IMG/VR virus record: IMGVR_UViG_3300037420_000593
Location: 1-38,482 of that record
Length of the DNA: 38,482 bases
Reading direction: 5' to 3' (one strand)
From: a virus
Lineage: Duplodnaviria; Caudoviricetes
How positions within the stretch are numbered: position 1 is the first letter of the stretch; every line of letters starts with the position of its first letter. Shown here piece after piece: positions 4,138 through 20,813 of the stretch. The translations under genes were made by a program, and so were the position numbers. Under the pieces are notes generated by a model that was not told where the DNA came from, ran no database searches, and was given only the letters and a program-made list of their open reading frames with translations.

Positions 4138-4278
4138 ATGAAGAAGTTGATCAAGGCCATCTACGAGTTGGTCGATCAGTTGCATGATCTCGGCGTCAAA
4201 CTGGACGGCATCAGCCAGGAGATTGCCGAGGGCAACCGTCAGGCACAGGAGCGCTGGAACAAGAGCGAGGCCCGATGA
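4138..4278 (+). CDS. Small hypothetical helical protein (46 aa)
   Basis: Strong RBS AAGGAGG; MKKLIKAIYELVDQLHDLGVKLDGISQEIAEGNRQAQERWNKSEAR; ATGA overlap with the next gene. Confidence 0.75.
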   Translation: MKKLIKAIYELVDQLHDLGVKLDGISQEIAEGNRQAQERWNKSEAR

Positions 4279-5084
4279 ACGTTCTGATTCTGGGCTGTGG
4301 CCCAGCGGGTCTCATGGCCGCGCATGCGGCGGCGATGTGGGGTCACGACATCAAGATCGTCAGCAAGAAGCGCAAGAGCGAGATGTTCGGTGCGCAGTAT
4401 CTGCACCAGATGATCCCCGGGATCGACTGCGGCAAAGGGCAACTGATCGACTACGTGCTTCAGGGCACCGTCGACGGGTACCGCCGCAAGGTCTACGGGC
4501 CGAGCTACACCGGTAGCGTCAGCGTCGAAGATCTCACCGAGCGGCACATGGCGTGGAACATCCGACGGACGTACGACGAGCTCTGGGACATGTACGGCGG
4601 CTACGTGATCGACATGCTTGTCGAGGGCAACGATCTTCAGATCGGCGGCAAGCTGGCGGAGATCGGGGCCGATCTCGTGATCTCCAGTGTGCCCGCCCCG
4701 TTGCTGTGCATCCGCCCGGAGGAGCACGGCTTCGCTGCCGAGGAGGTCTGGGCCATCGGCGATGCGCCGGAACGCGGCCAGTTCGACCCGGTGCACGCCG
4801 CTCCCGCCAATTCGGTTGTGTGCAACGGAGAACCCGATGTGGGTTGGTACCGCAGCGCCAACGTGTTCGGCCGTTCTACGACCGAGTGGCCGCTGAAGCG
4901 TCGGCCTCCGTTTGAAGGGGTGGCTCAGGTGGTGAAGCCCCTGAAGACGACGTGCGACTGCTTCCCCGCAGTGATGCGCGTCGGTCGATACGGCAAGTGG
5001 GAGAAGGGTGTTCTGGCCCATACGGCGTTCTTCGACGTCGAGGAGAAGTTCTCGGCGATCGGCTTCCAAGAGGCCCTGTTCTGA
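4275..5084 (+). CDS. FAD-dependent oxidoreductase (Rossmann; UDP-galactopyranose mutase/protoporphyrinogen oxidase-like motifs)
   Basis: N-terminal VLILGCGPAGLMAA dinucleotide-binding motif, GAQYLH, DLVISSVP, C-terminal VGRYGKW. Confidence 0.8.
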   Translation: MNVLILGCGPAGLMAAHAAAMWGHDIKIVSKKRKSEMFGAQYLHQMIPGIDCGKGQLIDYVLQGTVDGYRRKVYGPSYTGSVSVEDLTERHMAWNIRRTYDELWDMYGGYVIDMLVEGNDLQIGGKLAEIGADLVISSVPAPLLCIRPEEHGFAAEEVWAIGDAPERGQFDPVHAAPANSVVCNGEPDVGWYRSANVFGRSTTEWPLKRRPPFEGVAQVVKPLKTTCDCFPAVMRVGRYGKWEKGVLAHTAFFDVEEKFSAIGFQEALF

Positions 5085-5719
5085 TGTGGCGGCAGCAGCC
5101 TCCGATCGTCGCCCTGGACGTCGACGGCACCATCGGTGTCTACCATCATCACTTCCATCAGTTCGCGGAGCAGTGGACGGGCAAGAAGCTCCGCAGCGGC
5201 TACGACGGCAGCATGCCGTTCTACAAGTGGCTCGGGTTGTCTAAGGCAACTTATCGAGAGTGCAAGTTCGCCTACCGACGCGGCGGACTGAAGCGTTCGA
5301 TGCCGCACTACACCGGGAGCCGGGAGTTCTCGGTAGCGGTTCGGAAGGCGGGGGCGAGGATCATCATCTGCACCACTCGGCCGTTCCGCTCGCTGGACAA
5401 CATCGAACCAGACACCGTCCACAACCTGAAGCGTCACGGTGTCCAGTTCGACTACATCATCAGCGGAGAGCGCAAGTATCACGACCTGCTCAAGATCCCT
5501 GGCGTACGTAGGGATCAGGTCGTGATGGTGCTTGAGGACCAGGATGACATGCTCGCCCAGGCCCTCCGACTCCGCCTCCCCGCAGTACGGATCCGCCATG
5601 CACACAACGACGTTTGCGACGTCAAAGTGGACGCCGAAGTTGGTAGTCTCGTGATGGCGCAAGAGGTAGCGTTGGCTCGTATTCAGCTTTACAACGAAGG
5701 GAACTGGGCGACCGCATGA
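5084..5719 (+). CDS. HAD-superfamily phosphatase (5'-nucleotidase-like)
   Basis: Motif I VALDVDGT, motif II ICTTR, K, motif IV LEDQDD; TGATG coupling to the upstream gene. Confidence 0.85.
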   Translation: MWRQQPPIVALDVDGTIGVYHHHFHQFAEQWTGKKLRSGYDGSMPFYKWLGLSKATYRECKFAYRRGGLKRSMPHYTGSREFSVAVRKAGARIIICTTRPFRSLDNIEPDTVHNLKRHGVQFDYIISGERKYHDLLKIPGVRRDQVVMVLEDQDDMLAQALRLRLPAVRIRHAHNDVCDVKVDAEVGSLVMAQEVALARIQLYNEGNWATA

Positions 5720-6081
5720 TCGACTACGAGTTCGTTGAGAGCACCGGCAAGACGCCGGTGTTGGTGCTCAAGATGCCGAACGGTATGGAGGGCACCGAAG
5801 CGGCAGCCACGTTGATCTCACTGGCCAGTGTGTTCAACGAGGCCCTGACGGTTGCCCACCACAAGAACGCGATGTACGGCAGCGCATGGCGGCGGCAGGG
5901 TTGGATGGGTAACCTCGCTCGCGTTATGAGCAAGGGCGAACGGCTCAAGAACCTGCTGTGGCGTGACCACGAGAAGTCGGGCGCGGAAGAGGCAGCCACT
6001 GACACCGCTCTCGACATGGTCAACATCATGGGCTTCTTCATGATCAACCGATCCGAGTCAAACAAGTGGGGTACCCGATGA
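5716..6081 (+). CDS. Nucleotide-modification-associated domain 1 (DUF1599-like) all-helical protein
   Basis: KNAMYGSAW...ARVMSKGERLKNL...DTALDMVN matches the remembered KNxDYGxxW...K..R...DT..D..NY pattern of DUF1599 and related dNTP pyrophosphohydrolase-like folds. Confidence 0.7.
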   Translation: MIDYEFVESTGKTPVLVLKMPNGMEGTEAAATLISLASVFNEALTVAHHKNAMYGSAWRRQGWMGNLARVMSKGERLKNLLWRDHEKSGAEEAATDTALDMVNIMGFFMINRSESNKWGTR

Positions 6082-6269
6082 AACAACTGCGTTCGAAGGA
6101 AGTGTGCCCGACGCACGACAGGTGCTCCGTGTGCCGCGAGGTACTCGGGCGGCTGCCAGGTGTCGCCATGCAGACCATCTTCGGGGTCCGGCTGTATCAC
6201 GTTCACTGCGCACCGCCAGCCCTGCGTAAGGCTTACCACGAAAGGGATCTGAGCCAAGATGTCCGGTGA
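6078..6269 (+). CDS. Small Cys/His (zinc-finger-like) protein
   Basis: ATGA overlap; CPTHDRCSVC...HVHC. Confidence 0.6.
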   Translation: MKQLRSKEVCPTHDRCSVCREVLGRLPGVAMQTIFGVRLYHVHCAPPALRKAYHERDLSQDVR

Positions 6270-6519
6270 CTACACCTGGGATCAGATGCCCGAAGAGCTT
6301 GCCCTTCAGTTGTTCGACTTCGCCCAGCGGAGCATCGAGGGCGGGTACGACAACAGTGCTCCGGCTGACGACCTCCTGGAGTGGCTGCAGAACGAGATGA
6401 AGAACTGCGCAGCTACGAAGCTTCAGTGGCCCCGGCTCTCGAGCTTCTGCCCCGACCTGCCCGTCCCGGGGTCGGAGTTCTGCCCCGCCCATCTTCCGAA
6501 GGAGGAAGTCGATGGCTGA
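6259..6519 (+). CDS. Hypothetical protein
   Basis: Phage-like codon usage, RBS AAAGGGA, overlaps its neighbours; C-terminal C..C..CxxH. Confidence 0.7.
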   Translation: MSGDYTWDQMPEELALQLFDFAQRSIEGGYDNSAPADDLLEWLQNEMKNCAATKLQWPRLSSFCPDLPVPGSEFCPAHLPKEEVDG

Positions 6520-6784
6520 CGTTAGTGGCCTCAAGCAAGCAATCTCGGAGATGGGCTACCTGCCGACGTGCACTGTGCGGGACCGCCGTAGCACGATGAA
6601 CGACGATGGGTTCTGGGCGGACGTGTTCGGGATGCCCGAGCCGTTGACCGAGGCCCAGGAGCTCGACGAGTGCTTCGGCATCGAAGCCCCGAACCCCTGC
6701 CCCGAGTGCGGTTCGATCGTTGCTTGCGGCTACGACTCCGAGGGTCGACCGATGATCCACGTCATCGAGGAGACCGATGAGTAG
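6512..6784 (+). CDS. Hypothetical protein with CPECG zinc ribbon
   Basis: RBS AAGGAGG; CPECGSIVACG. Confidence 0.7.
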   Translation: MADVSGLKQAISEMGYLPTCTVRDRRSTMNDDGFWADVFGMPEPLTEAQELDECFGIEAPNPCPECGSIVACGYDSEGRPMIHVIEETDE

Positions 6785-9700
6785 GTTCCACTCACTGCAC
6801 CATCACACGACGTACTCGTACATGGATGGCTACGGCACCGTCGAGGACCACGTAGCGGCGGCGGCAGATCTCGGGATGCCCAGCCTCGCGTTCACCGAGC
6901 ACGGCAACGTGTCCTCGCATGTCAAGGGAGAGCGAGAAGCCCTTGCCGCAGGCATCAAACCGATCTTCGGCTGCGAGCTCTACACCGGACCCGTCGGCGA
7001 GGACGCCAGCCGGTACAAGTGGCACCTGACGGTGCTCGCGATGAATCAGGTCGGGCTGAGTAACCTGTATGCCCTTGTTTCGAAGGGCTGGAAGGACGGG
7101 TTCTACTACGAGCCAACCGTCTCGGGTGACATGCTCGTCGAGCACAGCGAGGGCCTCATCGTGCTGTCGGGGTGCAGCGGCTCCAAGATGGCCTGCGACT
7201 TGGTGGGCGGCAAAGGGGTTGAGCCGCACGACGTGGACTACGGGGCAGCCCTGGACACCGCCCTCAAGTTCCGAGACCTGTTCGGCGATCGCTTCTACCT
7301 TGAGGCACAGGCGTTCCCCGAGCTAGAGCGCACTCGCAACATCAACCAAGCGTGGGAGCGCATGGCTGACCAGACGGGCATCCCGCTCGTCGTAACTGGC
7401 GATGTGCACTACCCGCGTCCGGGCGACAACGACATGCAGGTGATCCTTCACGCGGTCGACCGAGGCGGCAAGAACAACACCGTCGAGAAGCAGCAGCAGG
7501 GGTGGGGCTACGACATCCAGCTGACCGCCTTCAAGGACAAGATCATTCACAAGAAGCTCGTTGCCTCCGGCATCAGTTCGCGGAGGGCCGAGGCGGCGGT
7601 CCTGATGACGGAGGAGATCGCCAACCGCATCGACGTCAAGATCCCGAAGTTCAAGGAGCTTGAATTCCCCATCCCCACCAAGACTCCGAAGCAGGAGTTC
7701 TTCCGGCAGTTGGTGCGCGAGGGGTGGAAGTTCCGAGGCTTCGACAAGCTCCCGAAGAAGGAGCGCAAGCGGTACAGCGAGCGCATGAAGTACGAGCTCG
7801 GCCTCATTGAGCTGAAGGGGTTCGAGGACTACTTCATGGTCATCAGCGACCTCATCGTTCATGCCAAGAACAAGGGCATCGCGGTCGGCCCGGCTCGCGG
7901 TTCGGCGGCGGCTTCGCTGGTGTGCTACTGCCTCCGCATCACCGAGGTCAATCCGATGTTCTTTCCGAACCTGATCTTCGAACGGTTCATCGACATCAAC
8001 CGCCACGACCTGCCTGACATCGACATCGACTTCGATGACCAGCGGCGGCCGGAGATCCGCCAGTATCTCGTGGATTCCTACGGCGAAGAACGCGTCGGCA
8101 ACATCGGCACCTTCACCAAGTACAAGGGCAAGAACAGCCTCGACGACGTAGCCCGCGTGAACAAGGTCCCGGCATGGGCCACCAGTGCCATCAAGGACAA
8201 GCTGATCGAACGGTCCTCTGGTGACCTGCGTGGTAACCAGACCATCGAGGACACCATCGAGATGTTCCCCGATGTCAAGAAGGTGTTCGAGCAGTACCCC
8301 GTTCTATTCCAGGCGCAACGGCTGGAGGGCAACCTGCGGGGAGCGAGTGTGCATGCGGCTGGGTTGGTGGTGGCCAACGAGCCGCTCACGAAGAGCGTCG
8401 CGGTCTACAGCCGCATCGATAACAAGACCGGTGCCGAGAGCAACGTTCTTTCTATCGACAAGCACGACGCGGAGTACATCAACGCTCTGAAGATCGACGT
8501 ACTGGGCCTGACGACGATGGGTGTCATCAGCAACTGTCTCGACATGATCGGCATGTCGCTGCAGGAGCTCTACGACGTGCCGCTCGACGTACCCGAAGTG
8601 TTCGAAGGCTTTAAGCGCAACGAGGTTATCGGCATCTTCCAGTTCGACGGGCGGGCGATGCGTTCGGTGAACCGCGAGGTCAAGCCGGACAACTTCGCGG
8701 AGGTCTGTGACATCAACGCACTGGCCCGCCCCGGACCCCTTCACTCCGGTGCCGCAGCCGAGTACATCATGGTCAAGCACGGCAAGAAGAAGGCCGAGAT
8801 CCTCCACCCCGTCGTCGCGGAGATCACCGCCCACACGAACCAGCAGATCGTCTATCAGGAGCAGATCCTTCAGGTGGTGCGGCGGCTCGGTAACTTCTCG
8901 TGGGAAGAGGCCGCCCTTATCCGCAAGCTGATCTCGAAGAAGCAGGGCGAGCAGGCGTTCAACCGCATGATGAGCAAGTTCGTTGAAGGGGCCATGAGCA
9001 ACGGTCTCAACGAGACGAACGCGGTGAAGGTGTGGAAGCAACTCGTCACAGCGGGAGCGTATGCGTTCAACGCTGCCCACTGCGTGAGCTACGGGATGCT
9101 CGCGTACTGGACCATGTGGCTCAAGCAGAACTACCCGCTCGAGTTCTACTGCGCATCCCTGCAGAAGTACGACCCGAAGACGAAGGGCTTCGATCTGCTC
9201 AAGGAGGCCATCGACAAGGGCATTGAGATCCTGCCGCCGCACCCGAGGAAGTCCGGCCTGACGTGGTCGTACAGCAAGAAGAAGAACAGCCTCCGAGCGG
9301 GCCTCCTTCAGGTGAACGGCATCGGCGAGAAGACGGCCGAGGCGATGGTTGCCTACCGCAACGCGAACGACGTTCAAGACTGGGATGACTACACAGCGGT
9401 CAAGGGCATCGGCCCAGCCACGATGGAGAAGGTTCGCACCTTCTGCTCCGACCCCGACCCCTTCGGTGTGTACCGGCTGGGGCAGACGCTCAAGAAGGTG
9501 CGGCGGTATCTGTGGGAGATGGGCGAGATCGACAACATCCCCTTCCCACGAAGCAAGAGCGACGACGTACCGTACGAGCCGATCCAGGGCGAGCACATCT
9601 GGCTCGGGGTGGTGCGGGACCGCAACCTGAAGGACATCTACGAGCTACACCGCTCGCGTACTGGTGACGAGCTTGACCCGGACAAGGTGCGGGAGCCGCA

Positions 9701-9929
9701 GTACGTCAACTACGCGGTGATCGTAGGCGAAGACGACACTGGCCCGCTGACGATCACGGTACACCGGTACGGCGGTCTCTACGAGCGGTACAAGGACGCC
9801 ATCTGGGGCATCGACCCGAAGCGCGACGTGATCGTTGTCCGAGGCTACAAACGGAAGGAGTACCGCAGGGCTATCTACGCGAAGGAACTGTTCGTCATCA
9901 ACCCAGACAAGCTCCCCGAGATCCACTGA
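6777..9929 (+). CDS. dnaE: DNA polymerase III alpha subunit (DnaE, family C)
   Basis: PHP domain LHHHTTYS...TEHGN...GCE...DVHY; GPARGSAAASLV; FERF; catalytic PDIDID and KIDVLGL; YQEQ; YAFNAAH; HhH GIGEKTA; C-terminal OB-like region. Confidence 0.97.
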   Translation: MSRFHSLHHHTTYSYMDGYGTVEDHVAAAADLGMPSLAFTEHGNVSSHVKGEREALAAGIKPIFGCELYTGPVGEDASRYKWHLTVLAMNQVGLSNLYALVSKGWKDGFYYEPTVSGDMLVEHSEGLIVLSGCSGSKMACDLVGGKGVEPHDVDYGAALDTALKFRDLFGDRFYLEAQAFPELERTRNINQAWERMADQTGIPLVVTGDVHYPRPGDNDMQVILHAVDRGGKNNTVEKQQQGWGYDIQLTAFKDKIIHKKLVASGISSRRAEAAVLMTEEIANRIDVKIPKFKELEFPIPTKTPKQEFFRQLVREGWKFRGFDKLPKKERKRYSERMKYELGLIELKGFEDYFMVISDLIVHAKNKGIAVGPARGSAAASLVCYCLRITEVNPMFFPNLIFERFIDINRHDLPDIDIDFDDQRRPEIRQYLVDSYGEERVGNIGTFTKYKGKNSLDDVARVNKVPAWATSAIKDKLIERSSGDLRGNQTIEDTIEMFPDVKKVFEQYPVLFQAQRLEGNLRGASVHAAGLVVANEPLTKSVAVYSRIDNKTGAESNVLSIDKHDAEYINALKIDVLGLTTMGVISNCLDMIGMSLQELYDVPLDVPEVFEGFKRNEVIGIFQFDGRAMRSVNREVKPDNFAEVCDINALARPGPLHSGAAAEYIMVKHGKKKAEILHPVVAEITAHTNQQIVYQEQILQVVRRLGNFSWEEAALIRKLISKKQGEQAFNRMMSKFVEGAMSNGLNETNAVKVWKQLVTAGAYAFNAAHCVSYGMLAYWTMWLKQNYPLEFYCASLQKYDPKTKGFDLLKEAIDKGIEILPPHPRKSGLTWSYSKKKNSLRAGLLQVNGIGEKTAEAMVAYRNANDVQDWDDYTAVKGIGPATMEKVRTFCSDPDPFGVYRLGQTLKKVRRYLWEMGEIDNIPFPRSKSDDVPYEPIQGEHIWLGVVRDRNLKDIYELHRSRTGDELDPDKVREPQYVNYAVIVGEDDTGPLTITVHRYGGLYERYKDAIWGIDPKRDVIVVRGYKRKEYRRAIYAKELFVINPDKLPEIH

Positions 9930-9938
9930 AAGGCACCA

Positions 9939-10571
9939 ATGAGCACCGACAAGATCATCATGGACCTGGCCAACCGCAAGCGGGCGGCACAGGCAGCCCT
10001 CGACACCATCTTCAAGGACACCGAGCACCCGTTCGTCATCGACGAGGTCGCGTTGCTGTTCACCGGCAACATGTGGCCCTTCATCGAGGAGGCTGTCAAG
10101 CTGGACGGGGTCAACCTCTTCAACGTTGCCGACGACAACGTCAACACGTACCCGATCCGGCGCAACTACGACGTTCGGTACTACTTCCTCTCGACGCCGT
10201 TCGGCTTCCGCATGGAGTGCATGCGCCTGACGGGCGGGGTCAGCCCGCTGCACAACGGCTTCGTCGGTCTCAACGGCGAGATCGCCGGGGAGCCGCCTGT
10301 CGTGCACTACTCGTTCAAGTGCGCCGATCCGCACGAGTACGAGTACGCCACGAAGACGATGGCGGGCAACGAGTGGGGCTTGGCCCAGTCGTGCGAGTCT
10401 ACGTACGGGCGGTTCTCGTACTGGCTGACCAATGAGACGACGGACATGGAACTAGAGAAGGCGGGGTGGCCCTGGCTCTCGACGGGGTACGAGGCGTATC
10501 TCAAGCCTCGTGTCAACCTTCGCGACAGCGTTCCGGCGGCTGCTCTGGACTACCTGGAGTCGAAGGCATGA
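9939..10571 (+). CDS. Putative VOC/glyoxalase-fold protein (methylmalonyl-CoA epimerase-like)
   Basis: IDEVALLF...RMECMRLTGGVSPLH...GEPPVVHYSFKCAD parallels the IDHIAIAV...IELLEP..xSP...GEG.HHIAF.VDD pattern of VOC epimerases. Confidence 0.55.
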   Translation: MSTDKIIMDLANRKRAAQAALDTIFKDTEHPFVIDEVALLFTGNMWPFIEEAVKLDGVNLFNVADDNVNTYPIRRNYDVRYYFLSTPFGFRMECMRLTGGVSPLHNGFVGLNGEIAGEPPVVHYSFKCADPHEYEYATKTMAGNEWGLAQSCESTYGRFSYWLTNETTDMELEKAGWPWLSTGYEAYLKPRVNLRDSVPAAALDYLESKA

Positions 10572-11254
10572 CCGTCCTGGTGGTTGGCTCCCGCCCCGGC
10601 TCCCTCGGCACCGCAGTCCGGGATCTCCTTCAGAACAGGGGTCTTCGCGTCGTCACCGCTGGGGTGTCCGGCGAGATGTTCCACATGGACATCACCGACC
10701 CCGTTCGCATCGCGGAGACGATCAACGCAGTGCGGCCGAGTCAGGTCGTGTGCACCGCTGGCATCAACGAGAGCTACTCTCTGCGGGCGGAGGGCTTGAC
10801 GGGCGGGATGGAGAAGCACTTGGCGGTCAACGCGACGGGCATCATTTCTCTCCTCCAAGAGTGGGTACACATGCTGGAGAGCACCGAAGTCGGCACGATG
10901 ATGCGGCTCAAGCAGTTCGTTGCCATTAGCTCCAACTCGGCCCACATCGCCCGTAGGCAGTCGATCGCGTACTGTGCCAGCAAGGCAGCCCTCAGCATGG
11001 CGTTGCGCTGTGCCGCCCGAGAAATCGCGGGCGAGGGCATGCTGGTGTACGGCTACGAACCCGGTCTCTTGGCTGGCACACCGATGACGGCGGGCAGTGC
11101 TGACGCCTTCCCCGGTGCGCTGCACCGCATGCCAGGGGTGAAGCCAGAGGGCCTCTCGACAATGGACTTCGCAAGCACTATCGTTGCGAATCTGATTCAC
11201 CCTAACCTGGCTCTGCACGGCACGATGCTACGGCTTGACGCTGGCGAGCAGTAG
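10568..11254 (+). CDS. Short-chain dehydrogenase/reductase (SDR)
   Basis: VLVVGSRPGSLG, CTAGIN, ISSNSA, catalytic YCASK, PG, C-terminal HGTMLRLDAG; ATGA-coupled to the upstream gene. Confidence 0.92.
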   Translation: MTVLVVGSRPGSLGTAVRDLLQNRGLRVVTAGVSGEMFHMDITDPVRIAETINAVRPSQVVCTAGINESYSLRAEGLTGGMEKHLAVNATGIISLLQEWVHMLESTEVGTMMRLKQFVAISSNSAHIARRQSIAYCASKAALSMALRCAAREIAGEGMLVYGYEPGLLAGTPMTAGSADAFPGALHRMPGVKPEGLSTMDFASTIVANLIHPNLALHGTMLRLDAGEQ

Positions 11255-11335
11255 CTGAAGCTGGATGATGAGAAGTGCTGGCGGGTAGCCCGTCTACCCG
11301 CTAGCGTTACCCCGCTACGCAACAGGAGGGCACAA

Positions 11336-11800
11336 GTGAAAAGCACTTTCACGGGGATCTCGAGCAACATGGTTGCCGAGAGTTTGGTTGGCCGCAAGGT
11401 CATTCGCGCCAATCAGGTTGACGACGTCGCGGAGCCGCCACAGGGCAAGGTCGTGTCGGTCAACCAAGATCGCTTCCACGTATGGGTTCTCTGGCCCTTC
11501 GGCAAGGGCGACCCTCATCGACACCCCTTTCGCGAGTTGATGCTCGTGAAGGAGGACATGGGTCTCACCAAGACGATGAAGTGGTCCGGCAAGACGCTCG
11601 GTGCTCTCGAGAAGTTCGTGGAGCAGGTGCGCGTCGAGGGCGGAGACGAAGATACGGTGCTCAACCCTGGCAAGCCGGAGCACGTCGGCATCGTGGTTGA
11701 GTTGCCGCTGGCAACGAAGCCGCCGACGAAGCAGCCGGGGACCATCGAGAACCCCTTTCCGAACCCCGCCGATTTCGTGACGATCAAGAAGGCGGACTGA
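11336..11800 (+). CDS. Hypothetical protein
   Basis: RBS AGGAGG with GTG start; phage-like codon usage. Confidence 0.75.
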   Translation: MKSTFTGISSNMVAESLVGRKVIRANQVDDVAEPPQGKVVSVNQDRFHVWVLWPFGKGDPHRHPFRELMLVKEDMGLTKTMKWSGKTLGALEKFVEQVRVEGGDEDTVLNPGKPEHVGIVVELPLATKPPTKQPGTIENPFPNPADFVTIKKAD

Positions 11801-12219
11801 TGCGGAAGATCTACATCGCGGGGCCGATGGCTGGGCATCTCGACAAGAACAAGGCGTCCTTCCAGTTCGCCCAGGACATGCTCGAGAACCTGCACGGCGT
11901 ACCGAGCACCAGCATCGCCAACCCCATCAGCATCGCCCCGTACGACCACGAGGATCCGGTGTGTCCACAGGGCCAGCGGAAGGTCGACGAGTTCGACAAG
12001 CACTCCGCCGGTTGCTACCTGCGCACGGACCTCTTCGAGATGCTTCAGTGTCAGGCAGCGGTGTTCCTCCCCGGCTGGGAGAACAGCGTCGGCGCACGGC
12101 TGGAGATGCAGGTGGCAACGGCGTGCGGGATCAAGATCGTCTTCATGGACATGCAGACGGGCGAGGTCTACGACACCCTGGCCCGCACTCTCAAGCTTGA
12201 TTGGTGGGAGGTGATCTGA
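11800..12219 (+). CDS. DUF4406 / nucleoside 2-deoxyribosyltransferase-like protein
   Basis: KIYIAGPMAG...NP...DLFEMLQCQAAVFLPGWENSVGARLE...A...G signature. Confidence 0.85.
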   Translation: MRKIYIAGPMAGHLDKNKASFQFAQDMLENLHGVPSTSIANPISIAPYDHEDPVCPQGQRKVDEFDKHSAGCYLRTDLFEMLQCQAAVFLPGWENSVGARLEMQVATACGIKIVFMDMQTGEVYDTLARTLKLDWWEVI

Positions 12220-12281
12220 TGTACTTCTTCAACTGGGCCAAGCTCGTCCTCGCCGAGATGTCCTGCCTCGTCTGCTGGTAG
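12219..12281 (+). CDS. 20-aa micro-ORF MYFFNWAKLVLAEMSCLVCW
   Basis: TGATG coupling and a perfect anti-SD match GGAGGTGATC at 12207-12216. Confidence 0.5.
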   Translation: MYFFNWAKLVLAEMSCLVCW

Positions 12282-12433
12282 ATCCATCTCGTTGTGACGG
12301 GCAACAAACTCTGAAGTTTGCGGTAGCGTTTCACTTGTCGGGCCGGTGTAGGGGTGGGCGGACCCCCAGGACGAACAACAAACCGGGAGCGGGAGGGAAC
12401 CCCGCACTTCACAAATAGAGAAAGGGTGGGGCA

Positions 12434-12508
12434 ATGAGGGCACTTGGATACGGAGCCGTTCTGGTGGTCATGATCGTGGTCATGTACGCCGCGCAACCCT
12501 TGCTCTGA
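12434..12508 (+). CDS. 24-aa single-transmembrane micro-protein MRALGYGAVLVVMIVVMYAAQPLL
   Basis: Purine-rich RBS upstream; uninterrupted hydrophobic stretch. Confidence 0.45.
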   Translation: MRALGYGAVLVVMIVVMYAAQPLL

Positions 12509-12540
12509 GCAACCAACCAACCAACAGAAAGACAAGGCAC

Positions 12541-13365
12541 ATGAACATCAAGAACATCGGTACCCGCGTCTGGGCTACCCGCGTCGGCAAGGTCGCGGTC
12601 CTGGGTGCGGCGGCCATCGCGCTGACCACTGGTGGGGCGGTCGCGGCTACCGCGCTCCCGACCAACAGCGTCGGCCCGGACCAGATCCAGACGGGCGGCG
12701 TGTGGGGCGGAGACGTGCACCGCAACACCCTCGGGGAGGACAAGCTCGGATGGGCTGTCCGCGAGAAGCTCAACAAGGTCGGCGAGACGGGTCCGGCTGG
12801 GCCTGCTGGCCCGCAGGGTCCGAAGGGCGACACCGGAGCTACTGGTGCCCAGGGCGAGAAGGGTGCCGACGGCAAGGACGGGGCGGTCGGTCCGGCTGGA
12901 CCGAAGGGCGAGAAGGGCGACCCCGGAGACCCGGCGACCGACGTGTACGGCAAGCTCCAGTTCGAGGTCGAGGTGCCCCAGGCAACGATCACCAACATCG
13001 GCGGTCGGTTCGCGGATCGGGCGACCAAGCTCTACACCTTCAAGGTCCCGGCCGACGGTAGCTGGTGCATCCAGACCACCGCGAAGTTCACCCGTACCGA
13101 GACGGCGGAAGCCGGGGCGGCTCTCGTTCGCCCGATGCTGGCCCTCCGCGTGCCTTCCCTTGAGAACAAGGACGCTGGCACGATCATGGGCAACGACATC
13201 AGCCCGGCTCTCAACAACGACCTGACGAGCCAGGTGATGGAAAACCTCGTGCTCAGTGCGGGCACGGAGGTCGACGTCTACGGCTTCGGGTACGCCGATG
13301 ACCGTGGTTCGGCTGGCTCCGGCCAGATCGTCGCCGGGGCGAGCATCAACGGCTTCCTCTGCTAA
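12541..13365 (+). CDS. Secreted collagen-like protein
   Basis: Signal peptide (basic N-region, hydrophobic core, AVAA); 17 Gly-X-Y triplets at 12781-12933; beta-rich C-terminal domain. Confidence 0.85.
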   Translation: MNIKNIGTRVWATRVGKVAVLGAAAIALTTGGAVAATALPTNSVGPDQIQTGGVWGGDVHRNTLGEDKLGWAVREKLNKVGETGPAGPAGPQGPKGDTGATGAQGEKGADGKDGAVGPAGPKGEKGDPGDPATDVYGKLQFEVEVPQATITNIGGRFADRATKLYTFKVPADGSWCIQTTAKFTRTETAEAGAALVRPMLALRVPSLENKDAGTIMGNDISPALNNDLTSQVMENLVLSAGTEVDVYGFGYADDRGSAGSGQIVAGASINGFLC

Positions 13366-13398
13366 GCCACCCCTCCGACTATCTACCCTGCTAGGTAG

Positions 13399-13450
13399 TC
13401 CTGTCTGGCTCGGGGCATTACCCCCACCCCTCACCCCGAGCCAGGCGGGA
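13399..13450 (+). terminator. Long GC-rich hairpin between the collagen gene and thyX
   Basis: TCCTGTCTGGCTCGGGG (13399-13415) pairs with CCCCGAGCCAGGCGGGA (13434-13450), including two G.U pairs. Confidence 0.6.
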
Positions 13451-13479
13451 TCCCCTAACAAGAGAAGAGAGAGGGCACA

Positions 13480-14526
13480 GTGGCTCAGGGCAACGAACTT
13501 CAGAAGTGGGCAGACCCCGCAATGTTCCGCGCGGAGGAGATGCCGTTCAACGTCAACGAGCAAGGGCCTCAGGCTCACCTGATCGGTATGACCGCCGATC
13601 CACTTGGCCACATCGCGGCAGCCTGCATGATGTACGAAGGCAAGGTCGTTCGCAGCCTGTCCGACGTCACCCACGAACAGCGCAAGCACTACTTCGAGCA
13701 GGTGAAGAACACCAAGCTCAAGGCCCCGTTCGAATTCGTGAAGCTGCACTTCATGTTCGACGGCGTCACCCGCTCCTTCACGCATCAGATGGTCCGCCAG
13801 AGAACGGCGGTGTATGCGCAGGAGTCCCTGCGGTTCGCGGTGAAGGACGGCATCGATGAAGAGGTCGCGCTCCCGCCCTCCCTGGCCGCCCTTCCGCAGG
13901 ACGACCCTCGGGTGCGGGTGTGGAAGCGAGCGGTGAACGCTGTTGACGACAGCTACCACGCTCTCGTAGAGTCGGGTGTGCCAGCCGAAGATGCGCGGGG
14001 GCTGCTGCCGCACAACATCACGACTCGTCTGCACTACAGCACCGATCTGAGGGCACTACAGGACCACGCTGGGAACCGGCTGTGCACGCAGGCTCAGTTC
14101 GAATGGCGGGCGGTCTGGACCCGTATCGTTGAGGCGATCCGCAACTATCGCCCGCACGCCGCGATGATCAAGTCGGCGGTGAACATGGGCGAACGCTTCC
14201 GGGACGAGCTCGCCTTCATGGACGCCTCGGATGCGTGGCAGTACGAAGCCCTCGCCGACCTGTTCCGCCCGGTGTGCTACCTCACCGGCAAGTGCGAGTT
14301 CATGGCCAACTTCGACCGCTCGTGCAGCATCCGCGACCGCGTCGAGGCCAACCACCACATCGGCCGCCCGTCGTCGGAATGGGGCGAGGAGTACGACACC
14401 GTCGCGCCGGAGAAGGTGGTCGTCGGCGTCGGTCCGAAGTCCGTTGTCCTGGACAACGATCGACCGGTGTTCATCGGCGCGATCAAGCCTGCCGAGTGGC
14501 TGCTCGACCCCGGAGCCGCCCGATGA
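13480..14526 (+). CDS. thyX: ThyX-family flavin-dependent thymidylate synthase homolog (divergent active site)
   Basis: PFEF...GVTRSFTHQMVRQRTAVYAQESLRF, EDARGLLP, NRLCTQAQFEWR; the RHR motif is RQR. Confidence 0.88.
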   Translation: MAQGNELQKWADPAMFRAEEMPFNVNEQGPQAHLIGMTADPLGHIAAACMMYEGKVVRSLSDVTHEQRKHYFEQVKNTKLKAPFEFVKLHFMFDGVTRSFTHQMVRQRTAVYAQESLRFAVKDGIDEEVALPPSLAALPQDDPRVRVWKRAVNAVDDSYHALVESGVPAEDARGLLPHNITTRLHYSTDLRALQDHAGNRLCTQAQFEWRAVWTRIVEAIRNYRPHAAMIKSAVNMGERFRDELAFMDASDAWQYEALADLFRPVCYLTGKCEFMANFDRSCSIRDRVEANHHIGRPSSEWGEEYDTVAPEKVVVGVGPKSVVLDNDRPVFIGAIKPAEWLLDPGAAR

Positions 14527-16043: not shown

Positions 16044-16613
16044 ATGGAGGTACCCCAGGGAAGGCTCGTGGTGTGCGCCTTCGACCCCGGCATTCGCACC
16101 GGCTGGGCGTGGTACGACGTGGATCGGGTTGACATGTGCAGCCTCGGAACGCGGCTGGGCTTGAAAGCGGCCGACGCCGAGTGGGGTGTCTTCGACACCA
16201 GCAAGGGCGAGCGGTATCACGTCGACCAGATGGTCCACGTCACTCGGGCGTGTTGGAACTGGGCGAAGGTGAACGAGGAGACCGACACGTTCATCGTCAC
16301 CATCGAGGACTTCATCCTGCAGATGATGTCGTCAGACCGCGAACTGCTGGCACCGGTTCGGCTGACCGCTCGCTTCCTGGACCGCATGGAGCCTAGCGGG
16401 CTGGCCATCTGGACGCGGCATACCGCCAGCGAGGCCAAGCGCACCGTCACCGATGAGCGGCTGCGCATCTGGAATCAGTACGACAAGAGCAGCGGAGACC
16501 ATGCTCGCGATGCCCAGCGGCACGCGATCCTCGTACTTCGCAAGTATGCAAGCGATCTCGGCTTCCGCAGTTGGGCGGGCGTCGGCCTTTCGAAGAAGGA
16601 GAAGTCAGCATGA
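16044..16613 (+). CDS. RuvC-like Holliday junction resolvase
   Basis: AFDPGIRTGWA, VTIEDF and HARDAQRHA acidic motifs of the RNase H fold. Confidence 0.8.
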   Translation: MEVPQGRLVVCAFDPGIRTGWAWYDVDRVDMCSLGTRLGLKAADAEWGVFDTSKGERYHVDQMVHVTRACWNWAKVNEETDTFIVTIEDFILQMMSSDRELLAPVRLTARFLDRMEPSGLAIWTRHTASEAKRTVTDERLRIWNQYDKSSGDHARDAQRHAILVLRKYASDLGFRSWAGVGLSKKEKSA

Positions 16614-16963
16614 CGGACAGCATCGTTGCCTCCGCCCCTCGCTCACCCGTCCCGCAGGACCTGCTCGGGATCTTGGAGTCGGTGATTGAGGAACGGGATC
16701 GGGCGATGGCGAAGTGGGGTGTGCAGTCGCACCCCGACGGAACGGGCGGTGGGGCGGCTGAGATCCTGCGTGATCAACAGCGCGAGCTCGTCGACGAGCA
16801 GAACCGCAAGGGGACTAGCAACTGGCGCGACATCCTCATGGAAGAGGTGCGAGAGGCGTTCGCCGAGACGGATCTCGTTGCCCTGGACAAGGAGCTCATG
16901 CAGGTGATGCAGGTGTGCTGTGTCTGGCGCGAGCACATCGCCCGACGGATGGCTCATGGGTAG
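16610..16963 (+). CDS. MazG-like all-alpha NTP pyrophosphohydrolase
   Basis: ERDRAMAKWGVQSH...WRDILMEEVREAF...KELMQV: EExxE...ELxQV motif. Confidence 0.7.
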   Translation: MTDSIVASAPRSPVPQDLLGILESVIEERDRAMAKWGVQSHPDGTGGGAAEILRDQQRELVDEQNRKGTSNWRDILMEEVREAFAETDLVALDKELMQVMQVCCVWREHIARRMAHG

Positions 16964-18181: not shown

Positions 18182-18935
18182 GACAACGAGCGAGCAGAAA
18201 CGGCGTATCCGCCGGATGCGCAAGGTTCGCCGGGGCCAGTGGGTCCGCGACATGACCGACGACGAGTGGGATCTGTACCTGGCCAACTGCGAGCTTACGG
18301 GGCAGCCTGTGAAGCCCCGAGAGGGCGGTTCATACGAACTACCGCCCGACAACGTTGTGACGCTCTACAAGGGCGAAGACCGCGTCGGGGTACCGGAGGG
18401 CGGCGGTCGGGCCGAAGACGGCGACCACCGTAAGCGGTACCGCATGAAGTACGCGGGGCGGCTCGGCAAGCGTTGGAGCGAGATCATCCAGGCGGTGCAG
18501 AACGGCGAGTACAACTGGGATGACTTCGTCTCCAGTCTTACCGCCGAGGAACTGGCTCGTGGCCAACTGATGGACAAGAACGGCAGCTTCAGCGGCAGAC
18601 CACCGCACTTCGTGCCGAAGGCGTTCCACGACGCCTGCATCCGCGAACTCCTTGCCCGAGGCAAGATTCTCTATAAGGAGAACTACGTCCAGGCCATCCA
18701 GGCGATGACGGAGATCGCGAAGTCCACCACAGCCAAGGAGAGCGACCGCATCAAGGCGGCTCAGTTCGTCATCGAACGGCTGGAAGGCAAGGTGCCCGAG
18801 CGTCTCGAGATCGGTGCGGCCGACCCCTGGCAGCAGATCATCGCTGGCATCGTAGCCGAAGTCGAAGACGACCAGATCGCCAGTGCTCAGCAGTACCTGA
18901 GCCGAATGGACCCAGGGGCCTCAGGCAACGACTAG
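18174..18935 (+). CDS. Probable terminase small subunit
   Basis: RBS GGGAGGT with TTG start; helical C-terminus ESDRIKAAQFVIERLEGKVPERLEI; upstream of terL. Confidence 0.55.
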   Translation: MSETTSEQKRRIRRMRKVRRGQWVRDMTDDEWDLYLANCELTGQPVKPREGGSYELPPDNVVTLYKGEDRVGVPEGGGRAEDGDHRKRYRMKYAGRLGKRWSEIIQAVQNGEYNWDDFVSSLTAEELARGQLMDKNGSFSGRPPHFVPKAFHDACIRELLARGKILYKENYVQAIQAMTEIAKSTTAKESDRIKAAQFVIERLEGKVPERLEIGAADPWQQIIAGIVAEVEDDQIASAQQYLSRMDPGASGND

Positions 18936-20205: not shown

Positions 20206-20410
20206 GAGCAACGAAGTGGTCTACATCAACGTCTCCGGCGTCGACGACGAGCCGCTGTGGGTGGACGTCGACGAGATCGCGGCCATCGGCGTACGCGGGG
20301 CCAATGACACCGCGATCGTGCTGAAGAGCGGTACGACGATCATTGCCAAGGACAAGCATCCGAACGAGGTCATCGGGGAGGTGATGGCCAGTGCCGATCC
20401 AGAAGGCTGA
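20198..20410 (+). CDS. Hypothetical small beta protein
   Basis: Overlapping operon gene. Confidence 0.65.
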   Translation: MAKSNEVVYINVSGVDDEPLWVDVDEIAAIGVRGANDTAIVLKSGTTIIAKDKHPNEVIGEVMASADPEG

Positions 20411-20813
20411 CGACACGATCGCGTTCGTTGCCACGAGCATCGTTCGCTCCGCCGCCCGCCTGTCCTCCTGCCGCAGGAGGCAAGTGGGTGCGGCCATCTT
20501 TCAACTCGACGGCAAACTCGTTGCCACTGGCTACAATCGAGAGACGGACTTCCCGAATGGCACACCTCGTTCGTGTCTGGAAGGGGACTGCCCTCGTGGG
20601 ATGGCTCCCTACGATGCCGTTCCGGCAGACTCTCCGTACAGCGATTGCGTCGCTATCCATGCTGAGATGATGGCCCTGCAGAAGGCGGAGTTGCTTACGG
20701 CAACGGTCGGGCCGGTTGACCTTATGATGGTCGTTACGCACAAGCCGTGTCACGAATGCGCACCCGTCCTCGAGCATCTCGGAATGGACGTGTACTACCT
20801 GGAGGAGATGTGA
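20391..20813 (+). CDS. dCMP deaminase
   Basis: SSCRRRQVGA, ATGYN, IHAE and PCHEC zinc-deaminase motifs. Confidence 0.92.
   Translation: MPIQKADDTIAFVATSIVRSAARLSSCRRRQVGAAIFQLDGKLVATGYNRETDFPNGTPRSCLEGDCPRGMAPYDAVPADSPYSDCVAIHAEMMALQKAELLTATVGPVDLMMVVTHKPCHECAPVLEHLGMDVYYLEEM

What the first reader, a model, noticed from the sequence alone, without database searches (positions are those of the whole stretch)
4275..14526. Candidate undescribed pre-replicative DNA base-hypermodification pathway interleaved with the phage DnaE
Seen: a flavoprotein, HAD phosphatase and Nmad1/DUF1599 protein (translationally coupled) sit before dnaE. A VOC-fold protein coupled to an SDR sits right after it. DUF4406 and a ThyX with a remodelled active site follow, with MazG-like and dCMP deaminase genes elsewhere in the window. 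Established: phages that replace a base typically carry a thymidylate-synthase-family enzyme, dCMP deaminase to supply dUMP, enzymes that destroy the canonical dNTP, and their own polymerase. Inference: redox (FAD, SDR), isomerase/lyase (VOC) and phosphatase steps are more than dTMP or hmdU synthesis needs. They would suit building a multi-carbon, possibly sugar-derived, side chain on C5 of dUMP, chemically reminiscent of the 5-dihydroxypentyluracil of Bacillus phage SP-15. No PurZ, Que/Dpd, ThyA-type hydroxymethylase or glycosyltransferase is visible in the window, so it does not match the standard Z, 7-deazaguanine or hmC/hmU systems.
Basis: partly seen in the sequence, partly recalled or inferred. 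Interest (0 to 1): 0.85.

Follow-up and report, generated by a model that had tools for sequence, protein, structure and literature searches.

The report
Phage sugar-thymine pathway around rewired ThyX
This phage carries, around its own DNA polymerase gene, a conserved enzyme set built on a thymidylate synthase that has lost its folate-contacting residues, and the set likely puts a sugar-derived chain on part of the thymine in phage DNA, because related genes sit in Pseudomonas phages known to carry sugar-bearing thymine made by unassigned genes.

Summary
The genes are real, linked and mostly named correctly. The phage is related to cultured actinophages PBI1, Lambo and Wollypog. A core of flavoprotein, HAD, Nmad1-like protein, DnaE and variant ThyX recurs in 43-48 of 48 related loci. 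SDR (32), VOC (16) and DUF4406 (15) are optional. All 66 module ThyX sequences lack His53, His79 and Tyr91 but keep the dUMP- and FAD-side arginines. The flavoprotein's best structural match is UDP-galactopyranose mutase. Distant homologues of the core lie in Pbunavirus F8 and 14-1, whose DNA carries 362 and 390 Da sugar-thymidines with no genes assigned. This genome avoids G/C-only palindromes far more than T-containing ones (ratio 0.38; random viral controls 1.1), as SP-15 does. No glycosyltransferase or dNMP kinase was detected in the whole ~59.5 kb genome. Best reading (0.45): flavin-mediated coupling of a sugar to C5 of dUMP before replication, with SDR/VOC editing the chain. dU + pentose - O equals 362, but an O-linked isomer has the same mass. 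A modified T of some kind is about 0.8 likely. No chemistry is shown. This scan found the core module before on other DNA.

The parts
4275..5084 (+). Core: small FAD flavoprotein, UDP-galactopyranose-mutase-like fold (269 aa)
   Evidence: AF2 pLDDT 95.7; VIA top hit UGM 4dsg Z 14.2, rmsd 3.7, 254 aligned, next 13.0; phrog_8720; full-length profile match to Lindbergviridae/Rhizobium-phage flavoproteins, prob 95%, E 7e-9
5084..5719 (+). Core: HAD phosphatase, NT5C/PNK-phosphatase-like (211 aa)
   Evidence: DxDGT at 12, motifs at 96, 129, 150; phrog_415 E 4e-17; 46 of 48 loci
5716..6081 (+). Core: Nmad1/DUF1599-like helical protein (121 aa); a similar domain is fused to a HAD domain in Lindbergviridae; function unknown
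   Evidence: Pfam E 0.022; Atlas 0.92; HMM hits to the six fusion proteins E 3e-4 to 6e-3 in a 15-protein set; 47 of 48 loci
6066..6784 (+). Three small overlapping ORFs (67, 86, 90 aa) linking Nmad to dnaE; not assigned
6777..9929 (+). Core: DnaE-type DNA polymerase (1050 aa)
   Evidence: Pfam PHP, pol3_alpha, finger; 48 of 48 loci
9939..10571 (+). Optional: VOC-fold protein, methylmalonyl-CoA-epimerase/glyoxalase-like (210 aa); invariant E36, E93, H123, K189
   Evidence: no match in cultured phages; 43 metagenomic homologues
10568..11254 (+). Optional: SDR with intact Ser and YxxxK (228 aa)
   Evidence: Pfam adh_short E 1.6e-12; motifs; homologues in 87 phage records incl. Myosmarvirus and Carpasinavirus
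11336..11800 (+). 154-aa ORF, no family; stop overlaps DUF4406 start
11800..12219 (+). Optional: DUF4406, nucleoside-2-deoxyribosyltransferase-like; candidate NMP/dNMP N-glycosidase
   Evidence: Pfam E 1.3e-16; phrog_355 E 1e-19; 15 of 48 loci
12541..13365 (+). Collagen-repeat ORF inside the cluster; probably not part of the pathway
   Evidence: Pfam Collagen; gaps of 321 and 114 bases
13480..14526 (+). Core: variant ThyX (348 aa): His53->Leu80, RHR->RQR (106-108), Tyr91->Phe119; Q103, R106, S116, R118, R173, R200 kept
   Evidence: Pfam Thy1 E 2e-31; under the TIGR02170 cut-off, 78.1 vs 87.9; alignments
16610..16963 (+). Possible MazG-like all-alpha pyrophosphatase (unconfirmed)
   Evidence: phrog_2831, unknown function, E 2e-17; no Pfam hit; EExxE-like motif by eye
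20391..20813 (+). dCMP deaminase (would supply dUMP)
   Evidence: Pfam E 1.6e-14; phrog_174

Best explanation
The cluster is a conserved phage module that likely replaces part of the thymidine in phage DNA with a deoxyuridine carrying a sugar-derived chain on C5, likely made as a nucleotide before replication. Shown: gene set, linkage, folds, ThyX residue pattern. Inferred steps: (1) dCMP deaminase supplies dUMP. (2) The variant ThyX binds dUMP and FAD as usual but takes a sugar aldehyde, probably a pentose phosphate, in place of folate-borne formaldehyde; flavin N5 carries it to C5 and hydride transfer gives 5-(polyhydroxypentyl)-dUMP. (3) The mutase-like flavoprotein prepares or activates the sugar by N5-sugar chemistry; DUF4406, where present, could release (deoxy)ribose 5-phosphate from nucleotides. 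(4) HAD removes the chain-end phosphate or trims nucleotides; Nmad's role is open. (5) SDR and VOC, present here, oxidise, epimerise or dehydrate, and reduce the chain towards a less hydroxylated product such as SP-15's dihydroxypentyl-dU. (6) The phage DnaE inserts the triphosphate opposite A, shielding T-containing restriction sites.
For: Linkage: HAD 46, Nmad 47, DnaE 48, ThyX 43 of 48 loci; VOC beside SDR in 34 of 34. ThyX: 0 of 66 module sequences keep His53, His79 or Tyr91, while Q75, R78, R90 are kept in 66, R147 and R174 in 65; 79 of 79 parsed L5-type controls keep both histidines. His53 stacks folate and bonds Tyr91; Y91 mutation slows flavin oxidation 1000-fold (PMC11940539 passages). 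ThyX can methylate dUMP from a free aldehyde without folate (PMC8316439 passages). UGM forms a flavin-N5-sugar iminium (PMC7662398 passages) and is the top fold match. F8 and 14-1 carry homologues of the core and 362/390 Da sugar-thymidines on about a quarter of T; dU + pentose - O = 362.133. SP-15 makes a C5-pentyl uracil before replication and has Thy1, SDR and NDT genes together. No glycosyltransferase detected in the genome. Palindromes: G/C-only 44 seen vs 139 expected, T-containing 654 vs 790, ratio 0.38 in both window halves; 22 GC-matched random viral loci minimum 0.86. All T contexts are spared alike here, 0.79-0.98. Relatives add UDG (27 loci) and dCTP deaminase (13), pointing to uracil nucleotides.
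Against: No enzyme was assayed and no DNA of this phage or of any actinophage carrier was found analysed. 362 and 390 fit O-linked hmdU-erythritol and hmdU-pentoside equally; the preprint describes them as tetritol and aldopentose derivatives of thymidine. F8's modification is TG-specific (echoed by palindromes), which suits a step on DNA. No P-loop dNMP kinase in the genome, so a bulky dUMP has no evident route to the triphosphate. Homology to the Pbunavirus core is distant: ThyX about 30-34% over part of its length, HAD and Nmad only weak HMM hits; their joint clade is unstarred, 86/78. 14-1 ThyX just passes the TIGR02170 cut-off. UGM leads unrelated monooxygenases by only 1.2-1.4 Z and E. 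coli Glf does not align beyond the Rossmann motif. SP-15 gp130 scores only E 0.035 with the module ThyX profile. Against 75 L5-like controls the palindrome contrast holds under one model (p 0.003) and not the other (p 0.35), and 18 of 75 fall below 0.7; host enzyme sets could cause the bias. Only formaldehyde, no larger aldehyde, appeared in the ThyX paper's passages.
Confidence: 0.45

Rival explanations
1. Handle first, sugar later: the variant ThyX makes a one-carbon handle (hydroxymethyl-dUMP), host kinases and DnaE put it into DNA, and an unrecognised transferase (perhaps the mutase-like flavoprotein or Nmad) adds an O-linked sugar or polyol on DNA; SDR and VOC shape the sugar donor.
For: Same masses; TG specificity in F8; no dNMP kinase; most known pyrimidine hypermodifications work this way (PMC13326640 abstract); a mutase would suit making an NDP-furanose donor; Sparcetus has a GT2 gene between dnaE and thyX.
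Against: A one-carbon handle would still need folate, whose contacts are lost in 66 of 66; the preprint passages mention no free hmdU; no transferase family detected in this genome; no TG preference here.
Confidence: 0.25
2. A modified thymidine is made, but not a sugar one: a small oxidised or otherwise substituted uracil, with the accessory enzymes tailoring it differently in each lineage.
For: Accessory genes vary: methyltransferase 6 of 48, asparagine-synthase-like ATP enzyme in 8 loci, GT2 in Sparcetus; flavin monooxygenases rank just under UGM; this ThyX subclade is far from the Pbunavirus one.
Against: The only analysed carriers of the core have sugar-type adducts; SDR, VOC and NDT folds suit polyol chemistry (inference).
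Confidence: 0.15
3. Ordinary nucleotide supply: a divergent but normal dTMP synthase with phosphatases and oxidoreductases that feed replication; DNA is canonical, and the Pbunavirus modification comes from other genes.
For: GenBank names these genes ThyX and oxidoreductase; catalytic Ser and arginines are kept; Phe at the Tyr91 place occurs in a canonical archaeal-virus ThyX; no gene-to-modification link found in print.
Against: Joint loss of His53, His79 and Tyr91 in all 66; tight linkage to a phage-only flavoprotein across three distant phage groups; selective avoidance of T-free palindromes.
Confidence: 0.12

Closest known systems
Pbunavirus F8 and 14-1 sugar-modified thymidine (PMC12191111; 14-1 gp66, gp60, gp58, gp56; F8 gp65, gp59, gp57, gp55)
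   Same: Flavoprotein, His-less ThyX (RTR), HAD plus Nmad-like domain, DnaE; T-directed palindrome bias
   Different: HAD and Nmad fused; no SDR, VOC or DUF4406 found in the 30-kb stretches read; TG-specific; myoviruses of Pseudomonas; genes not assigned to the modification in the text read
Myosmarvirus MTx, Carpasina, Wifcevirus SP13 (Lindbergviridae-type, family name recalled)
   Same: Flavoprotein, ThyX, HAD-Nmad, SDR, VOC, DnaE in one run: the nearest match in gene content
   Different: Their VOC is another sequence type, not alignable to this one; DNA chemistry not found reported
Cultured actinophages PBI1 (gp58-65), Lambo (gp67-81), Wollypog, Sparcetus, Yara, Terapin
   Same: Orthologous core, 38-50% identity, same order
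   Different: No VOC of this type in any cultured record; some carry a methyltransferase or GT2; no pathway annotated
Bacillus phage SP-15 5-(4',5'-dihydroxypentyl)uracil (PMC5977210)
   Same: Partial T replacement made before replication; divergent Thy1 gp130 beside SDR gp129, NDT gp127 near; strong avoidance of G/C-only palindromes
   Different: gp130 is not a detectable orthologue; no flavoprotein or VOC homologue found; PolA-type polymerase; separate glycosyltransferase cluster; the paper proposes gp130 as a hydroxymethylase
Flavin-dependent thymidylate synthase ThyX
   Same: Thy1 domain, dUMP- and FAD-side residues
   Different: RHR motif, His53 and Tyr91 lost; C-terminal extension; under the equivalog cut-off
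UDP-galactopyranose mutase (Glf)
   Same: Top fold match; five short motifs in the same order by eye
   Different: About 100 residues shorter than E. coli Glf; no significant sequence alignment; activity untested

Membership tests
ThyX dTMP synthase (TIGR02170) | Thy1 domain | tested here: met
   109.7 bits vs cut-off 24.8
ThyX dTMP synthase (TIGR02170) | Equivalog score cut-off | tested here: not met
   78.1 vs 87.9; canonical viral controls 175 and 205
ThyX dTMP synthase (TIGR02170) | RHR motif and folate-stacking His53 | tested here: not met
   RQR and Leu80
ThyX dTMP synthase (TIGR02170) | Q75, R78, S88, R90, R147, R174 | tested here: met
   all kept
ThyX dTMP synthase (TIGR02170) | dTMP formation from CH2-THF | not testable with these tools
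   needs assay or thyA complementation
UDP-galactopyranose mutase | UGM-type FAD fold | tested here: inconclusive
   top hit Z 14.2, rmsd 3.7, 254 aligned; other flavoenzymes at 12.8-13.0
UDP-galactopyranose mutase | Sequence family and active-site motifs | tested here: inconclusive
   no GLF Pfam hit; hhalign to Glf not significant; motif match by eye only, residue roles recalled
UDP-galactopyranose mutase | Mutase activity on an NDP-sugar | not testable with these tools
   needs assay
VOC superfamily (MMCE/glyoxalase) | Fold | tested here: met
VOC superfamily (MMCE/glyoxalase) | Canonical four-ligand metal site | tested here: inconclusive
   invariant E36, E93, H123, K189; mapping to MMCE ligands by eye and recall
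Nmad1/DUF1599 | Profile match | tested here: inconclusive
   15.5 bits vs cut-off 25; Atlas 0.92 to clusters with DUF1599 on 32-67% of members
DUF4406 / NDT superfamily | Profile match | tested here: met
   61.2 bits vs 22; phrog_355
Pbunavirus sugar-thymidine system | Homologues of flavoprotein, His-less ThyX, HAD, Nmad, DnaE | tested here: met
   HAD and Nmad links weak
Pbunavirus sugar-thymidine system | TG-specific protection | tested here: not met
   indirect: TG palindromes 0.79, TC 0.91, TT 0.98 here; F8/14-1 TG 0.95, TC 0.65
Pbunavirus sugar-thymidine system | 362 or 390 Da nucleoside in virion DNA | not testable with these tools
   needs LC-MS
SP-15 DHPU pathway | Orthologue of gp130 with adjacent SDR | tested here: inconclusive
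   gp129 hits the SDR profile at E 2e-10 (generic SDR level); gp130 E 0.035; the genome search that found no flavoprotein in SP-15 also missed the known distant homologues
Z, 7-deazaguanine, ThyA-type hmC/hmU, dioxygenase plus glycosyltransferase systems | PurZ, Que/Dpd, ThyA homologue, TET/JBP, glycosyltransferase | tested here: not met
   no Pfam or PHROG hit among 48 window ORFs and 38 ORFs of the missing 21 kb that I chose to scan; small or unscanned ORFs remain

The most novel reading that the evidence does not exclude
A ThyX that has swapped folate for a sugar: it forms a carbon-carbon bond between a pentose and C5 of dUMP through flavin N5. The bare core would give the 362 Da tetrahydroxypentyl-dU of F8; adding SDR and VOC, as here, would strip hydroxyls towards the 346 or 330 Da series that ends in SP-15's dihydroxypentyl-dU. 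One chemistry would then explain a 50-year-old orphan base, the modified DNA of therapeutic PB1-like phages, and an unnoticed modification in many actinophages.
Probability: 0.35. Interest if true: 0.9.

Novelty: new variant of a known kind. Interest (0 to 1): 0.72.

Why it matters
It names candidate genes for two modifications whose biosynthesis was not found assigned in the papers read: the sugar-thymidines of Pbunavirus, a family used in phage therapy and targeted by END nucleases, and by analogy SP-15's pentyl-uracil. It predicts modified DNA in well-known cultured actinophages, with masses that should track the SDR/VOC genes, so one LC-MS run tests it. If ThyX accepts a sugar, that is new flavoenzyme chemistry and a route to C5-modified dNTPs with a polymerase that accepts them.

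Tried and rejected
VOC homologue in SP-15: a weak hit (E 0.007) lies in a homing endonuclease gene; rejected. Sequence link between this VOC and the MTx-type VOC: not found; the 34-of-34 SDR adjacency counts both types and some contigs twice. Pairwise and small-profile links between this flavoprotein and the Lindbergviridae one covered only the Rossmann motif; the full-length match needed larger alignments. PDB sequence searches with the flavoprotein and VOC profiles gave nothing specific. Nmad structure search gave no TM over 0.5. Dinucleotide odds ratios showed no TG signal. Splitting module loci by SDR/VOC content did not change the palindrome pattern. No relative of the terminase in genome contigs. 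No tRNA. Literature: ten searches found no paper assigning this module to a modification; Wollypog gave 0 papers. The 2013 paper that I recall defining Nmad1 is not held, so a prior prediction there is not excluded; subscription papers, the journal version of the END preprint, its spectra figures and supplements were not seen. Complex prediction and read-mapping tools were not used.


Full report
Setting. The window is a 38.5-kb linear virus record, 65% complete, 61% G+C, with primase, DnaE, terminase, portal, capsid and tape-measure genes. Its flavoprotein matches 126 cultured phage records, all of actinobacteria, and its ThyX matches the same groups at 33-45%. A second contig, G001, matches both ends of the window at 100%, so the window and loci L246/L247 together cover a circular genome of about 59.5 kb. 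The extra 21 kb encodes HTH proteins, an SNF2 helicase, an exonuclease and a Sak4-like protein; no glycosyltransferase, ThyA, dioxygenase, PurZ, Que or UDG family was hit among the 38 ORFs I scanned. P-loop motifs occur only in the primase-helicase, terminase and Sak4.

Observation. The ORFs, overlaps and names hold, with the corrections listed under the observation check. The VOC call, invisible to Pfam, is confirmed by structure prediction. The flavoprotein model (pLDDT 95.7) matches UDP-galactopyranose mutase best (Z 14.2, rmsd 3.7, 254 aligned), with UGMs again at ranks 5 and 7 but other flavoenzymes at Z 12.8-13.0; Foldseek put D-amino acid oxidases first. Five invariant motifs fall in the order of five Glf motifs by eye, but hhalign does not confirm this. 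I call it UGM-like, not a UGM.

Co-occurrence. From 80 IMG/VR loci found with the flavoprotein alignment (best 80 of 171) I kept the 48 with at least 9.5 kb downstream. HAD was present in 46, Nmad 47, DnaE 48, ThyX 43, SDR 32, VOC 16, DUF4406 15, methyltransferase 6 (maps). These loci are related and include near-twins, so the counts show conservation, not independent origins. Among 95 loci, all 34 with a VOC have an SDR within 700 bases. Other optional genes are UDG (27 loci), dCTP deaminase (13) and an asparagine-synthase-like enzyme (8); Sparcetus has a GT2. The flavoprotein family is large (1,052 clusters at E 0.001) and viral in its nearest Atlas clusters.

Reach beyond actinophages. MTx, Carpasina and SP13 carry flavoprotein, ThyX, a HAD-Nmad fusion, SDR, VOC and DnaE in one run. 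F8 and 14-1 carry the same without SDR and VOC in the stretches read. Rhizobium phage RHph_TM3_3_6 has the flavoprotein, ThyX and fusion too. The two flavoprotein groups align full length by profile (prob 95%, E 7e-9); the Nmad and HAD links are weak.

ThyX. Of 71 distinct sequences aligned, 66 are module-linked and 5 canonical. None of the 66 keeps His53, His79 or Tyr91; Q75, R78 and R90 are kept in 66, R147 and R174 in 65, Ser/Thr88 in 66. Of 80 L5-type control loci, 79 parsed and all keep both histidines. In T. maritima ThyX, His53 stacks on folate and bonds Tyr91 and Asn85 (PMC11940539, passages), R174 activates dUMP (PMC8316439, passages), and formaldehyde can replace folate through a flavin carbinolamine. 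So the nucleotide side is kept and the folate side is lost; that the donor changed is inference. In a tree of 44 rows (subsampled by me; an intein-bearing row and a fragment left out) the 5 canonical rows lie on one side of a 97/84 branch, and the window's clade joins the Pbunavirus/Rhizobium group at only 86/78, with long-branch warnings.

What is known of carriers. PMC12191111 (abstract, sections 8, 26, 30 and passages) reports thymidine derivatives of 362 Da (F8; erythrose/threose alcohol type) and 390 Da (14-1; ring aldopentose type) on about a quarter of T, in a TG motif, and names no genes in the text read. By arithmetic 362.133 is both dU + pentose - O, the product of ThyX-type reductive alkylation with a pentose, and hmdU + erythritol - water; 390.127 is both dU + hexose - water and an hmdU pentoside. 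PMC5977210 (passages) says that SP-15's dihydroxypentyl-uracil is made before DNA synthesis, that SP-15 has two Thy1 genes, and cites a paper titled as showing label from ribose (title only seen). In the record, gp127 is NDT-family, gp129 an SDR and gp130 a divergent Thy1. This is the same trio of folds as here, but orthology is not shown.

A test on the sequence itself. If part of T is shielded, restriction-type palindromes without T should be lost more than those with T. Positive controls behave so: SP-15 has almost no CCGG, GCGC or GGCC (0.05, 0.06, 0.00 of expectation), and F8 and 14-1 spare TG-containing 6-mers (0.95, 0.94) but not other T-containing ones (0.68, 0.67), matching the published TG context. 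In this genome G/C-only 6-mer palindromes are at 44 of 139 expected and T-containing ones at 654 of 790: ratio 0.38 (0.19 under a second-order model), the same in both halves of the window. Of 80 listed random GC-rich viral loci 53 were long enough: median 1.10, one at or below 0.4; the 22 GC-matched ones have minimum 0.86. The 46 module loci have median 0.83 (p 7e-7 and 6e-4 against the matched set). Against 75 L5-like loci the median is 0.99, p 0.003 under one model and 0.35 under the other, and 18 are below 0.7. No T context stands out here. The test cannot tell T from A, ignores relatedness and depends on host enzymes; I count it as moderate support for a modification without strict context.

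Mechanism and odds. I put about 0.8 on a modified T/U made by this module. Within that, direct C5 coupling of a sugar before replication gets 0.45 overall, because it alone explains the lost folate contacts, the absent glycosyltransferase, the F8 mass and the SP-15 parallel. Its weak points are the missing kinase and F8's TG context. A handle-then-transfer route gets 0.25, another small modification 0.15, plain dTMP supply 0.12.

Novelty. Sugar-bearing thymidine in phages and pre-replicative C5-alkyl uracil are known; the genes are annotated one by one in GenBank. Ten literature searches (listed under Tried and rejected) found no assignment of this module. Repurposed ThyX has a precedent in polyoxin PolB (PMC5003785, search listing only). 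Other papers opened: PMC13326640 (abstract, outline), PMC8989533, PMC7662398, PMC13307970 and PMC5954106 (passages; the last two gave nothing used). Earlier notes of this scan describe the same core in other genomes; I had reached that reading before opening them. A second look-up for the SDR/VOC, SP-15 and palindrome points returned nothing. Verdict: new variant of a known kind, interest 0.72; categorically new enzyme chemistry if the C-C reading holds.

Noticed in passing
window 12541-13365: Collagen-repeat ORF with a hydrophobic N-terminus sits between DUF4406 and thyX, with its own intergenic gaps; looks like an inserted moron.
   Followed up: no
L032, thyX near 18500: An intein-like insert of about 300 residues interrupts the ThyX just after the RQRT motif.
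   Followed up: no
L103 527-1486, 3896-4696, 6667-7389 (Rhizobium phage RHph_TM3_3_6): A 207-kb Rhizobium phage carries the flavoprotein, His-less ThyX and HAD-Nmad fusion, loosely spaced; predicted carrier of a modified T.
   Followed up: partly
L114 43729-46910 (SP-15 gp127-gp130): NDT-family, SDR and divergent Thy1 genes lie together: a candidate DHPU-forming set apart from the published gene 146-155 cluster.
   Followed up: partly
L114-L116 (SP-15): G/C-only 4-mer palindromes are nearly absent.
   Followed up: partly
L047 11226-11852, L029 13613-14155, L009 10804-11688 and relatives: Optional UDG, dCTP deaminase and asparagine-synthase-like genes inside the module suggest further tailoring variants.
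   Followed up: partly
L030, L043, L050, L055, L058, L079: These loci carry the MTx-type VOC beside the SDR, a different sequence type from the window's VOC.
   Followed up: partly
PMC12191111 Extended Data Table 3: The site listed for DraI contains TG although the text says cutting enzymes lack TG; probably a listing slip.
   Followed up: no
G001:C1:1-24500 (L246, L247): Contig identical to both window ends; supplies the missing 21 kb of the genome.
   Followed up: yes
window 16044-16613: RuvC-like resolvase by homology to annotated genes of Lambo and Wollypog.
   Followed up: no
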